A stretch of DNA of 64,000 nt from Octopus vulgaris (lineage: Eukaryota). Under the pieces are notes generated by a model. It had not been told where the DNA came from. It did no database searches and worked only from the letters and a program-made list of their open reading frames with translations. Shown one piece after another: positions 5,589 to 54,530 of this stretch (position 1 is its first letter; the number at the start of each line of letters is the position of its first letter). The stretch lies in contig OX597839.1 in assembly GCA_951406725.2 (NCBI GenBank), positions 37,138,001-37,202,000 on the forward strand, in the 5' to 3' direction. The position numbers and the translations under genes were made by a program.

Positions 5589-5910
5589 TTAAAGAGTGTT
5601 GGGGTGGGGAATGCAATGACTGGTGAAATCTTAGTACATAGAGAGGGTGCAGGACAACAAGCTAACAATGATACAGTGAGCAGGGCAGTGAGGACAGGAT
5701 TGGGGAGCGAGAGATGTGTGTGCAACAAGTAAACAGGAGTGATGCAAGGTGATTACATAACTCCCATTCTCTTGTCATTCATTAATTTATATTACTCTCT
5801 TTACTTGCATAACACTTTACTCTAAAGTATATATAACTGTGTTCTAACAACTGGTTACCAATATTGTTATGCTTAAGCAAAACCATAAGATATATATATA
5901 TACATATATA

Positions 5911-6068
5911 GGGTAAGTTTACGAAAAAAACAAAAGATGAAGACAGGTGGTGTACAAAACAAACAGATGTATTAGTATAACGCTCAGGAATAGAAAAAGT
6001 CTTTTACATTTCGAGCCTATGCTCTTCTACAGAAAGGGACACAGAAAAAACAAGGAGAGAAAAAATGT
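5911..6068 (-). mobile_element. Hammerhead-bearing short element (family P2) in (TA)n
   Basis: Homologous to 27178, 28776, 36555, 54350; TA repeats on both sides. Confidence 0.7.
6001..6036 (-). ncRNA. Hammerhead-like motif with non-canonical core (CUGUAGA)
   Basis: Minus strand CTTT-CTGTAGA-A-GAGC-ATAG-GCTC-GAAA-TGTA-AAAG. Confidence 0.55.
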
Positions 6069-6069
6069 A

Positions 6070-6105
<36 letters not shown>

Positions 6106-7523: not shown

Positions 7524-7566
7524 CCACCTGAAGATTGTCGATCAAGACAAGAAACGATTGTAGTGG
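7524..7566 (+). ncRNA. Minimal type I hammerhead ribozyme, canonical core (family P5)
   Basis: CCAC-CTGAAGA-TTGTC-GATCAA-GACAA-GAAA-CGATTG-TA-GTGG: stem I CCAC/GTGG, stem II TTGTC/GACAA, near-palindromic stem III ACGATTGT, GUA site; inside a ~150 bp insert between (TA)n runs. Confidence 0.85.
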
Positions 7567-7789
7567 CGTTTTTTTTTACTATTTATTAAAATTTTATGTA
7601 TTGATTAAGTCTTTCCTTGTTTGTTTTGCAAAATAGTGGTTTTGTCTCTAATAATATTTTATATATATATATATATATATATACATAAACACACACACAA
7701 ATATATATATATTTTATCGACCCCAAAAGATGTGTATGCATATATACATATGTGTATGTATATGCATATGTGTATAAGTGTGTGTGTGT

Positions 7790-11581: not shown

Positions 11582-11965
11582 TCAAAATGTGACCGCATGT
11601 GTACCGTTGGCGATTTTTTTTCCTCTGTCTTCCCTTCTCTGGATCTTTCCTTCTCCTATATTTCCAATGAAAAGCTCCACTCGAAACGTTAAACCCTCCT
11701 TCTTTCCTTAGCGTCCAATAATACTATATTTGTTCCACGTCCTCACGTTGTGTTTTTTTGTGCTTTCTTGTTTGGATTAACTATATATATATATATATAT
11801 ATGACCAATTCTTTCAGTTTCTGTCTACCAAATCCACTCATAAGGCTTTGGTCAGCCCGAGACTATAGTAGAAGACACTTGCCCAAGGTGACACACAGTG
11901 AGACTGAACCCAGAACCTGGAATCATGTGGTTAGGAAGTAAGCATCTTACCACACAGCCATGCCT
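11335..11965 (-). mobile_element. SINE family A interrupted by a P1 element
   Basis: Tail half 11335-11560 and head half ~11800-11965 separated by insert in the internal microsatellite. Confidence 0.8.
11581..11782 (+). mobile_element. Hammerhead-bearing short element (family P1), decayed core
   Basis: Reverse complement of 35738-35965; ATTT-CCAATGA-AAAGCTCCACTC-GAAACGTT-AAAC at 11660-11694; (TA)n both sides. Confidence 0.7.

Positions 11966-26736: not shown

Positions 26737-26740
<4 letters not shown>
26560..26740. mobile_element. Family P3-related fold-back element
   Basis: Perfect ~50 bp arms TATACAATATGTTACATTACTCGGTAGTCAAGATAAAACTCTGAGTTTCAG / CTGAAACTCAGAGTTTTATC...; right part is the reverse complement of 33569-33645. 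Confidence 0.75.
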
Positions 26741-26770
<30 letters not shown>

Positions 26771-26773
<3 letters not shown>

Positions 26774-27682
26774 TAAACATACTGACATCTGCTCTGCTCA
26801 TAAACAGACACATACATATTATCATCATTATTTTAATGTCCACTTTTTTCGTGGTTGCGTGGGTCAGACAGAATTCATTGAGGTAGATTTTTCTGAGGCT
26901 GGATGTCCTTCCTGTTGCCAACCTTCACCTGTTTCTGTTTCCAAGCAAGACTATTTCCCCTTGGCCAAATATGTTTTCCCCAAAAATCTGGAAACAAAGA
27001 TCACCACTTGTATGACATTGATACTCATGTACAACCATCAGTGATGTCTAGACAATAATGCTCATATATGCATATACTACTATATATATATATATACATG
27101 TATATATACATGTACTCATATATATATATACATACATGTACACATATATATATAAAGATATATACATACATATATCTAAAATTTACAAAAAAAACCCAAA
27201 AGACGAAGACACGTGTATAAACAAGCAGGTGTATTAGTTTGACGCTCTGGAAAGTGAGAAAGTCCTTTATGTTTTGAGCCTACGCTCTTCAACAGAAAGG
27301 AACACAAGGAAACAGAGAGAATTAAAAAAACTTGTGGATTTAGCAGTCAATACACACACACACACACACACACATACACATATACACAATACACATTAGA
27401 TGGGCCTCTCAGTTTCTGCCTTCCAGATTTACTCAGAAGGTTTTGGTCAACCTGTGACTATTGTAGAAAACACCTGCACAAGGTGCTGCCCAGTGAGAGT
27501 GAACCTGAAATCACATGGTTGAGAAGCCAGCTTCTCAACCACTCATACACCTGCACCAATTTCTTCTCTTGTTATTGGTAAAATATTCTATATAATATGT
27601 TTTATTATGTTTTGGTTTTTCATAACATCATCATCATCCTCATCATCACCATTTAACGTCCAGTTTCCATTCTGGCATGAGT
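26771..27682 (+). repeat. Direct duplication copy 1 (~0.9 kb)
   Basis: Colinear with 28289-29278, including E, P2 and SINE A fragments. Confidence 0.92.
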
Positions 27683-28307: not shown

Positions 28308-28350
<43 letters not shown>

Positions 28351-28644
28351 GCTCATCTGCTCTGCTATGAACAGACACATACATATTATCATCATTATTT
28401 TAATGTCCAATTTTTCATGGTGCATGGGTCAGACAGAATTCATTGAGGTAGATTTTCTGAGGCTGGATGTCCTTCCTGTTGCCAACCTTCACCTGTTTCT
28501 GTTTCCAAGTTCCAAGCAAGATTATTTCCCCTTGGCCAAACATGTTTTCCCCAAGAATCTGGAAACAAACCACTTGTATGACATTGATACTCATGTACAA
28601 CCATCAGTGATGTCTAGACAAGAATGCTCACATATGCATATACT

Positions 28645-28683
<39 letters not shown>

Positions 28684-28946
28684 GTACATATACATGCACA
28701 CACACACATATATATATATATATACATACATGTACACATATATATATATAAAGATATATACATACATATATCTAAAATTTACAAAAAAAACCCAAAAGAC
28801 GAAGACATGTGTATAAACAAGCAGGTGTATTAGTTTGACGCTCTGGAAAGTGAGAAAGTCCTTTATGTTTTGAGCCTACGCTCTTCAACAGAAAGGAACA
28901 CAAGGAAACAGAGAGAATTAAAAAAAACTTGTGGATTTAGCAGTCA

Positions 28947-28989
<43 letters not shown>

Positions 28990-29278
28990 TTAGATGGGCC
29001 TCTCAGTTTCTGCCTTCCAGATTTACTCAGAAGGTTTTGGTCAACCTGTGACTATTGTAGAAAACATCTGCACAAGGTGCTGCCCAGTGAGAGTGAACCT
29101 GAAATCACATGGTTGAGAAGCCAGCTTCTCAACCACTCACCCACACCTGCACCAATTTCTTCTCTTGTTATTGGTAAAATATTCTATATAATATGTTTTA
29201 TTATGTTTTGGTTTTTCATAACATCATCATCATCCTCATCATCACCATTTAACGTCCAGTTTCCATTCTAGCATGAGT
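28289..29278 (+). repeat. Direct duplication copy 2 (~1.0 kb)
   Basis: Colinear with 26771-27682; differs mostly by microsatellite lengths and small indels. Confidence 0.92.
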
Positions 29279-35610: not shown

Positions 35611-36092
35611 ATATACATATACATACATATACATATATACATATATATACATATACATATATATATATACATATATACATATACATATATATATATACAT
35701 ATATACATATACATATATATATATACATATATATACATAGTTAATCCAAACAAGAAAACACAATAAAACACAACAACGCGAGGACGTGGAACAAATATAG
35801 TATTATTGGACGCTCAGGAAGGAAGGAAAGAAGGAGGGTTTAACGTTTCGAGCGGAGCTCTTCATCGGAAACATAGGAGAAGGAAAGATCCAGAGAAGGG
35901 AAGACAGAGGAAAAAAAAAAAAAAAAAAAAATCGCCAACGGTACACACGAGGTCACACTTTGAAATATACACACACATTCATACATATACATACATCTAC
36001 ACACACATATATAAACATGCACATACACACACACACATACACATACATAATACACCAATATATAAGTTCTGCAGTTCTGCATTGTATGCATG

Positions 36093-36166: not shown

Positions 36167-36554
36167 ACATACATAAATGTGTGTGTGTGTATTCTTTATC
36201 TGTTAATTCTTTTGTTGTGTGTTTTGCATAGGATACAACACATACACACACACATTCTTACAAAGTAATGACAATGTCAAAATATATCTAAGAGTGATAA
36301 AAGTAATACGCACAAATAATATATTCATAATATATTCATAATCATGGATGAAGATAAATATATTGGAAAATAATTAACAGTTTATTCAATGACAAAAACA
36401 AATTTATAAGGATTCAGAAAGATAATACCTGCCAACCAATTAAATTGTTAGATTTAATAAACAAATTACAATGATAAACACACTAACAATATGTTCATTG
36501 CTTTCTCCACACTGAAGTAGGATTCATCCCACCTACACACACACACCTACACAG

Positions 36555-36790
36555 GGAGAATTCACAAAAAAACAAAAGACGAAGACAGCTGGTGTAGACA
36601 ACAAACAGATGTATTAGTATAAAGCTCGGGAAGTGAAAAAGTCTTTAATGTTTCGAGCCTACGCTCTTCCACAGAAAGGAACACAGAAAGAAACAAGGAG
36701 AGAAAATAAAGAATATGTATGGCTAGCGATCTATCATGGTGAATGCTGAACAGAAGGGTCACACAGGAGAGCTAGGGAGAAGGGGCACAC
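36555..36790 (-). mobile_element. Family P2 element with hammerhead-like motif (36643-36678)
   Basis: Minus strand CTTT-CTGTGGA-A-GAGC-GTAG-GCTC-GAAA-CATT-AAAG. Confidence 0.7.
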
Positions 36791-45252: not shown

Positions 45253-45817
45253 GTATGTATATATATATACGTATGTATTTGCATATGTTTTTCCTGGCTC
45301 TGTATTCTTTGAATACTTGAAATAACCAACAAAGATCAAAATTCCTTTTCATATCTAATTTCTTTTTGATTTTTACGATATAATTTTATTTTTTTCAAAT
45401 AGTATTTTGCACCTAATTAGTAATAATACAATCAGAATCATCAATACATTTCTTTAATAAATGATTAATTACCTACATGGAAACGTTAATGATATCCTAG
45501 TGGAGGAAATGAGAAAGCTCAAAGAAACTTCTCTTTCATTCTTCTACTTTCTTTTCTCTTTAACTGTGAGTTGGTGTTTGATTAGTAATAACACTTCACT
45601 TTAGAGACACTTGTCTTCATTTGCAAAAGACTGTTAGCAACAGCTGGTTCACAACACCAGTAGATTGTCTGTATGTATGTTTATGTGCTGAATGTGTGTA
45701 TATGATATATGTATATATGTATCTTCCAATTTTCCTGAGCATCAATCTAATACATCCTGTTTGTTTTTTTACCTCATTTTTGTGTCTTTAATTTTGTGCC
45801 ACACACATATATATATG

Positions 45818-54349: not shown

Positions 54350-54530
54350 CAAATTTATAGAAAAACAAAGACCTAGAGAGGTGTAGGAACAACAAGCAAG
54401 TGTATTAGTTTGATGCTTGGGAAAAAGGGAAAAGCCTTTTACATTTTGAGCCTAAGCTCTTTGGCAGAAAGGAATAAGTGGAAATAAACAGAGAGAATGA
54501 TAAAAAAAAAACATGTTGAGTTCAGTGGTC
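54350..54530 (-). mobile_element. Family P2 element, degenerate
   Basis: Homology to 5911-6068; motif at 54436-54471 mutated. Confidence 0.6.

What the first reader, a model, noticed from the sequence alone, without database searches (positions are those of the whole stretch)
6001..6036. Family P2 carries a recurrent non-canonical hammerhead core, CUGUNGA (A6 to U)
Seen: copies read CTGTAGA (6001), CTGTTGA (27264, 28861) and CTGTGGA (36643). U at position 6 is constant while position 7, the free position in hammerheads, varies. An extra A precedes stem II GAGC/GCTC and stem III is loopless (inferred consensus ACGT). Each copy has private lesions elsewhere. Known: A6 is highly conserved in hammerheads. 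Inference: A6U was present in the active master elements, so it may be a functional natural core variant.
Basis: partly seen in the sequence, partly recalled or inferred. Interest (0 to 1): 0.7.

Follow-up and report, generated by a model that had tools for sequence, protein, structure and literature searches.

The report
Family-wide U6 minimal hammerhead variant
A very abundant short repeat in this animal genome carries a hammerhead-shaped RNA motif of the kind known from Penelope-like jumping genes, with U in place of the normally fixed core base A6 across the family rather than in stray copies, so it is likely a weakened natural variant whose cutting activity is untested.

Summary
The four listed copies are only three independent insertions (27264 and 28860 lie in one local duplication), and a missed, decayed fifth copy has C6. 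Contigs from three differently labelled organisms and RNA reads show U6 is family-wide: no alternative at position 6 is listed, and in run X2 A6 is below 2%. The extra A and loopless palindromic stem III are published hallmarks of Penelope-type minimal hammerheads (PMC4209133), so only U6 is new. Catalytic G8 and G12 are kept. A natural A6C variant is published as weakly active; I found no A6U report, but the largest survey of these variants was not readable. No reverse-transcriptase gene was linked to this family, and RNA reads show no cleavage pile-up. Verdict: new variant of a known kind, probably an attenuated dimer-cleaving ribozyme; function untested.

The parts
6001..6036 (-). Minimal type I hammerhead motif, copy 1: C3=6032, U6=6029, N7=A, H17=A at 6005 (predicted cut between 6005 and 6004). 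Stem III segment AUGU, still self-complementary through G.U pairs; the least damaged copy in the window
5910..6080 (-). Host repeat copy 1 (~170 bp; ends approximate): pyrimidine tract, hammerhead, conserved tail, U-run, then (TA)n
27264..27299 (-). Motif copy 2: U6=27292, N7=U; G12A and G16.2A lesions (predicted dead)
28860..28895 (-). Motif copy 2': duplicate of copy 2 inside a local duplication (about 26739-27682 vs 28311-29278); U6=28888
36643..36678 (-). Motif copy 3: U6=36671, N7=G, H17=U at 36647; G16.2A breaks the stem III palindrome. Reference copy for the read analysis
36552..36790 (-). Host repeat copy 3 (ends approximate), the longest in the window; its extra upstream part recurs as loose ends of contigs in all three DNA runs, so the family continues upstream in some copies
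   Evidence: (table 7)
54436..54471 (-).
35838..35872 (-). Sister-family hammerhead with A6 (and C4); same layout and tail; serves as outgroup; stem I outer pair G-C where the U6 family has C-G
11660..11694 (+). Second, decayed copy of the A6 sister family

Best explanation
This is a minimal type I hammerhead motif in a very high-copy short repeat, likely the 3' end of a Penelope-like retroelement, in which U6 is the family-wide letter and likely weakens but does not abolish dimer-dependent self-cleavage. Shown: the fold (stem I, CUGUNGA, extra A, stem II, GAA, ACGU, U/A17, stem I), the family-wide U6, and intact G8 and G12 in the majority sequence. Inferred from published Penelope hammerheads: two motifs in one tandem transcript pair their ACGU palindromes to form stem III in trans, G12 acts as base and the G8 2'-OH as acid, and the RNA is cut after GUU or GUA. 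Inferred from A6C data: U6 loses the hydrogen bonds and stacking of A6, so the rate would be low and may depend on metal ion or protein help. A6-to-U arose once in a source element, before the subfamilies and the labelled organisms' copies diverged, and was tolerated because these motifs are slow anyway. The solitary genomic copies here are predicted to be inert truncated insertions decaying at CpG sites.
For: Family-wide U6: laid 16,405, 18,671 and 16,502 contigs (organisms A, B, C) and 2,287 RNA reads at 80% likeness or more; none of the 40 rows shown (of 122) is at 36671. In X2 all 4 of 4 places with an A>T difference of 2% or more are shown and lie elsewhere, so A6 is under 2%; both of 2 A>C places are shown too, so G6 and the forbidden G17 are under 2%. 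Variation follows hammerhead rules: N7 has all four letters in all 4 runs, H17 is A in 26-70% and otherwise mostly U; non-CpG variable sites are 1 of 30 constrained positions against 23 of 124 flank positions (Fisher p=0.027). Stems: 48 of 48 cells paired across 6 sequences, with C-G, G-C and A-U at the outer stem I pair. A model built only from 5 A6 motifs finds the four U6 copies at E 1e-6 to 1e-5 and the fifth at 0.02. Layout matches the published consensus 'U-rich, CUGANGAH, G..C, GAAAN palindrome NUH, AU-rich' (PMC4209133 Fig S3). Natural A6C keeps low but detectable activity (PMC3088659; PMC7151607).
Against: No cleavage data; the RNA run shows no place where many reads begin or end (table 6), though fragmented RNA-seq of mostly old embedded copies (92% run on into unlike sequence) is a poor test. 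No reverse-transcriptase ORF in the window (89 frames of 110 aa or more, judged by eye) and no longer copy was obtained, so the Penelope link rests on layout. The Fisher test uses only the 40 shown rows, drops CpG and copy-private sites (with CpG sites it is 4 of 30 against 27 of 124, no contrast) and the low-complexity flanks may inflate their count. For X3, X5 and X23, A6 is bounded only by the apparent display cut-off of about 11%. Minimal hammerheads with a perfect core are already barely active in vitro, so adding A6U may leave nothing. U6 can pair with A15.1 in a rod-like misfold (predicted open-core probability 0.01-0.29 with U6 against 0.00-0.60 with A6). The model is partly circular: its non-window members were found with a pattern taken from this motif.
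Confidence: 0.58

Rival explanations
1. Dead ribozyme carried along: A6U inactivated the motif in a source element, which kept amplifying because cleavage is dispensable; the fold persists by inheritance or as a structural or recognition signal for the reverse transcriptase.
For: Position-6 changes are predicted to break one or two hydrogen bonds and A6C cut the Mg2+ rate to 3.55e-6 per min at 0.3 mM in one ribozyme whose A6 form gave 0.3 per min. [quoted passage not shown] A U4-to-A subfamily reached 11% in organism A on top of U6, which suggests a relaxed core. U6 favours a rod fold in 8 of 8 modelled backgrounds.
Against: Subfamily-level changes fall on N7 and on H17 (U/A, G under 2% in X2) and spare the other core and stem positions, the pattern expected if cleavage, not just a hairpin, is kept; a rod needing U7-A14 would not leave N7 free.
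Confidence: 0.27
2. Fully functional or retuned variant: U6 is compensated (by flanking sequence, the extra A, Mn2+ or the element's protein) and was selected to gate cleavage.
For: U6 is fixed across subfamilies about 80% alike and three labelled organisms; A6C switches metal preference to Mn2+ with rates near 0.2-0.3 per min; a downstream GAGCG that can pair with stem II is conserved in both sister families.
Against: Fixation in a retroelement family needs only one founder; no covarying partner for position 6 was seen between this family and the A6 sister family beyond C4/U4 and loop II; folding gives no stability signal (z-scores -0.8 to +0.5 for 90-100 nt stretches).
Confidence: 0.12
3. 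U6 is a local or chance feature of a few related copies while the family at large has A6.
For: Only 3 independent U6 insertions in the window and one C6 copy.
Against: A6 is under 2% in X2 and not among the listed differences in the other 3 runs; a single-base difference could not exclude A6 copies at 80% likeness.
Confidence: 0.03

Closest known systems
Minimal hammerheads (min-HHRs) of metazoan Penelope-like elements (Cervera and De la Pena 2014, PMC4209133)
   Same: Type I topology, short stem I, one extra base between 9 and 10.1, G10.1-C11.1, palindromic 15.2-16.2 without loop 3, U-rich upstream flank, mostly solitary dispersed copies.
   Different: All 56 of 56 representatives in Fig S3 have A6 (their descriptor required it) and none is a cephalopod; the published core variant there is U3-A8, a compensated pair, whereas U6 has no partner. 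No ORF link shown for this family.
Natural A6C hammerhead of phage Bcep176 (Perreault 2011, PMC3088659; Naghdi 2020, PMC7151607)
   Same: Natural pyrimidine at core position 6; low activity in Mg2+.
   Different: C not U; a single phage intergenic ribozyme with tested activity and Mn2+ preference, not a fixed state of a high-copy animal repeat in a minimal dimer-type scaffold.
Small hammerhead variants of Penelope-like retrotransposons that cleave as dimers (Lunse, Weinberg, Breaker, RNA Biol 14:1499)
   Same: By title and by the summary in PMC6765202: short stem III, dimer cleavage.
   Different: Paper not held; whether it lists a U6 family is unknown.
Hydra-clade and Naiad Penelope-like elements of Octopus (Craig 2021, PMC8557442)
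   Same: (TA)n insertion preference; hammerhead near the 3' end in Hydra-1_oBim.
   Different: Hydra-1_oBim has A6 and a different, longer hammerhead; the 3' ends of Naiad_Obim and Naiad_Ovul shown do not resemble this repeat.

Membership tests
Hammerhead ribozyme (strict consensus) | Core C3 U4 G5 A6 N7 G8 A9 | tested here: not met
   U at position 6 family-wide; other positions match in the majority
Hammerhead ribozyme (strict consensus) | G12 A13 A14, A15.1-U16.1, H17 | tested here: met
   G12A only 4-5% of DNA depth (16% of RNA reads); H17 U or A; G17 under 2% in X2
Hammerhead ribozyme (strict consensus) | Stems I and II | tested here: met
   48 of 48 cells paired, one pair with compensatory changes, 12 of 500 shuffles as high; only 6 related sequences
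Hammerhead ribozyme (strict consensus) | Self-cleavage 3' of H17 | not testable with these tools
   No assay; no read-end pile-up in one RNA run (table 6), a weak test
Hammerhead ribozyme (Rfam families) | Score at a family's gathering threshold | tested here: not met
   0 matches in the window; the A6 sister motif is missed too, so Rfam does not cover this minimal type
Penelope-type minimal hammerhead | Extra nucleotide between 9 and 10.1; G10.1-C11.1 | tested here: met
   Extra A in 5 of 5 window copies; no T>C, T>A or T>G difference of 2% or more there in X2
Penelope-type minimal hammerhead | Palindromic 15.2-16.2, no loop 3 | tested here: met
   ACGU in the majority (G16.2 77-84%, C15.2 about 88-94%)
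Penelope-type minimal hammerhead | Located in the pLTR / 3' end of an element with RT and GIY-YIG ORF | tested here: inconclusive
   No ORF in the window; no longer copy found; sense-strand 3' end abuts (TA)n in 4 of 5 copies, (TG)n-like in one; upstream continuation exists (table 7)
Penelope-type minimal hammerhead | Cleaves as a dimer | not testable with these tools
   Dimer fold is stereochemically nested and scored -9.9 to -10.9 kcal/mol but is not the predicted minimum
Non-LTR retrozyme (tandem 150-300 bp units with canonical type I hammerhead) | Head-to-tail tandem array of hammerhead-bearing units | tested here: not met
   Copies are dispersed; the one close pair is a local duplication including unrelated flanks; only 2 of the 15 joints shown are go-back joints in DNA contigs of any size, at low depth, plus one short RNA joint (table 5)

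The most novel reading that the evidence does not exclude
U6 is a selected, working core variant: a retroelement lineage swapped one of the eleven 'invariant' hammerhead bases and went on to spread to very high copy number in several species while keeping every other catalytic rule, using the change to gate cleavage by metal ion (as A6C does for Mn2+) or by its own protein; an added U4A subfamily would extend this. Large hammerhead families would then be invisible to CUGANGA-based searches.
Probability: 0.15. Interest if true: 0.7.

Novelty: new variant of a known kind. Interest (0 to 1): 0.42.

Why it matters
The in vivo role of Penelope minimal hammerheads is described as still a mystery (PMC7761336). 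A family that fixed a non-compensated change at A6 and still amplified is a natural experiment: activity would widen the tolerated hammerhead core and show that descriptor searches miss whole families; inactivity with a preserved fold would be direct evidence that these motifs do something other than cut. One cheap assay (U6 against A6, Mg2+ against Mn2+) separates the two.

Tried and rejected
Whole genome: none held. Rfam: 0 matches at gathering score; at E up to 1 the 150 listed of 423 matches were microsatellite-driven miRNA models and one viral UTR model, no hammerhead among those listed. Collections: viral contigs gave 13 G+C-rich matches without U16.1/stem I, taken as chance and 0 for a tail motif; prokaryote genomes 0 and 0; metagenomes 4 loci, of which L014 looks like chance and L015-L017 hold A6 minimal hammerheads of the same layout, with no recognisable RT frame in their ORF lists. 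Run search: no RNA holder listed. Alternative registers rejected: shifting by one to make U3-A8 destroys G5; reading U as an insertion would make the four-letter N7 position serve as A6. Naiad identity rejected; motif searches of the PMC8557442 and PMC13282606 supplements gave 0 hits, but line-wrapped or cut sequences can hide matches and the Octopus repeat library is not in that supplement. Folding stability is no evidence either way. Bacterial promoter/terminator scan was irrelevant and empty. Literature for A6U: searches listed no hammerhead A6U report (listings and abstract starts only; one search listed 30 of 56; the one whole-word hit is a twister paper, not opened). Octopus plus hammerhead. 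Earlier findings: none for this genome or sequence.

Full report
Observation. The motif is on the minus strand. Cores: CTGTAGA (C3 at 6032), CTGTTGA (27295, 28891), CTGTGGA (36674), each followed by an extra A, GAGC-loop-GCTC, (G/A)AA, a four-base stem III segment, position 17 and a strand pairing with the bases before C3. The strict motif occurs 4 times against 0.015 in 200 block shuffles. The copies at 27295 and 28891 sit in one local duplication (91.6% over 986 columns; elements 99.2% identical) and count once. A fifth copy at 54436-54471 has C6, C7, A8 and A12. So the window alone gives U6 in 3 of 4 independent insertions, which are 65-82% alike.

Host element. Each motif lies in a 160-240 bp repeat: pyrimidine tract, hammerhead, conserved tail, U-run, then (TA)n in 4 of 5 copies and a TG-rich run in one. 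The window is microsatellite- and repeat-rich animal DNA with no reverse-transcriptase frame among 89 open frames inspected by eye. It resembles an octopus genome from recall; I did not test this. A sister family with the same layout and tail has A6 and C4 (35838-35872 minus, 11660-11694 plus), and three metagenome loci hold same-layout motifs with A6 (L015-L017). A6 is therefore the ancestral state and U6 derived (inference).

Is U6 family-wide? No genome is held, so I laid public data on 36545-36722 at 80% likeness (4 of the 24 runs listed): 16,405, 18,671 and 16,502 contigs from runs labelled organism A, B and C, and 2,287 of 12.9 million RNA records of organism A. Forty of 122 difference rows are shown; none is at position 6 (36671). 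The lowest maximum share among shown rows is about 11%, so hidden rows are probably below that (inference about the ranking). For X2 the bound is tighter: it has 4 places with an A>T difference of 2% or more and all 4 are shown elsewhere, so A6 is under 2%; its 2 A>C places are both shown, so G6 and G17 are under 2%; 1 of its 6 A>G places is hidden, so C6 is not excluded below the cut-off. By contrast N7 carries all four letters in all 4 runs (U 20-42%, C 13-31%, A 4-20%, rest G), position 17 is A in 26-70%, and 16.2 is G in 77-84%, confirming ACGU. G12A (4-5% of DNA depth, 16% of RNA reads), C15.2U and G16.2A are CpG-type decay. A U4A variant makes 11% in organism A and 0.3% in B and C. Depth sums are not copy numbers; window density (4 insertions in 64 kb) and the contig counts only say the family is very large.

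Is the fold constrained? Among shown rows, non-CpG variable sites are 1 of 30 core/stem positions against 23 of 124 flank positions (one-sided Fisher p=0.027); both rule-free core positions (7 and 17) vary. I dropped 4 CpG sites and 1 copy-private site from the flanks and 3 CpG sites from the motif; with CpG sites kept it is 4 of 30 against 27 of 124, and low-complexity flanks can inflate their count, so this is modest support. Across 6 sequences of three families 48 of 48 stem cells pair, with C-G, G-C and A-U at the outer stem I pair (12 of 500 shuffles as high). A model from 5 A6 motifs ranks the four U6 copies at E 1.4e-6 to 1.4e-5 and the fifth at 0.022, next hit 0.3; this is partly circular. 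Rfam finds nothing at gathering score, not even the A6 sister motif.

Mechanism. From structure, G5 and A6 stack after the U-turn while G8 pairs with C3 and donates its 2'-OH (PMC11300833, passages); G12 is the base and the G8 2'-OH the acid (PMC6155905, passages). Both are kept here. A natural A6C variant is expected to lose one or two hydrogen bonds and cleaves at under 0.1 per min (PMC3088659, section 8 and passages); A6C is strongly impaired in Mg2+ but works in Mn2+ (PMC7151607, parts 1-2 of 4). Minimal Penelope hammerheads show no activity as monomers and low activity as dimers (PMC4209133, parts 1-2 of 4). I infer that U6 gives an attenuated, dimer-dependent ribozyme in tandem transcripts of the source element. 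Folding adds a weak negative: with U6 the predicted monomer pairs U6 with A15.1 in 8 of 8 backgrounds (open-core probability 0.01-0.29 against 0.00-0.60 for A6), and the double-hammerhead fold (-9.9 to -10.9 kcal/mol) is never the predicted minimum for any letter at 6. RNA reads lie equally on both strands, 92% run on into unlike sequence and no read-end pile-up is seen: read-through of embedded old copies, uninformative on cleavage.

Comparison with what is known. The extra base between 9 and 10.1, G10.1-C11.1 and the palindromic loopless stem III are listed hallmarks of metazoan Penelope minimal hammerheads, and the layout matches the Fig S3 consensus; 56 of 56 representatives there have A6, as the descriptor required, and none is a cephalopod (supplement parts 1-2 of 3). 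All cores in File S2 of PMC8557442 have A6, including Hydra-1_oBim (passages and supplement parts 1-2 of 59); Octopus Naiad 3' ends differ from this repeat. Naiads lack canonical hammerheads and still amplify strongly, which keeps the dead-motif rival alive. The motif works like, and is laid out as, a Penelope minimal hammerhead; it fails the strict core at position 6; its ORF link and activity are untested. Searches for an A6U report (listings only) found none, but Lunse et al. and Arkhipova et al. 2017 were not held and may cover it. Other papers seen: PMC6765202 (passages, section 11 part 2), PMC7761336 (passages), PMC13282606 (passages and supplement search), PMC8967140 (passages), bioRxiv 2026.07.22.740005 (part 1 of 5).

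Verdict. Real, family-wide and derived; a new core variant of a known kind. Attenuated but active 0.58, dead or structural 0.27, fully functional or retuned 0.12, local artefact 0.03. Interest 0.42.

Noticed in passing
window 35838-35872 (-) and 11660-11694 (+): Sister repeat family whose hammerhead keeps A6 but has C at position 4 in both copies (a U4C core variant); the two elements are about 94% alike over the aligned columns.
   Followed up: partly
window 36673 (reads): U4-to-A on top of U6 in 11% of organism A contig depth and RNA reads but 0.3% in organisms B and C: a possibly species-restricted subfamily with two core changes.
   Followed up: no
window 36624-36628 (-), 5982-5986 (-), 35812-35816 (-): A (C/U)GAGCG segment about 20-30 nt after the cleavage site is conserved in both families and pairs with the 3' strand of stem II in the predicted folds of copy 6032 and the sister family: a possible competing off-state.
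   Followed up: partly
window 7528-7570 (+): A third hammerhead-like motif with canonical CTGAAGA core and a longer stem II, single copy in the window, between (TA)n runs.
   Followed up: no
window 45725-45800 (+): A 3' fragment of the U6 family tail without the hammerhead.
   Followed up: no
window 36679 (reads): C-to-U at stem I position 2.5 (3-22% by run) would add a fifth pair to stem I.
   Followed up: no
L015 1191-1234 (-) and 1386-1429 (+): Two near-identical A6 minimal hammerheads in inverted orientation about 150 bp apart, the inverted arrangement described for Penelope insertions.
   Followed up: no
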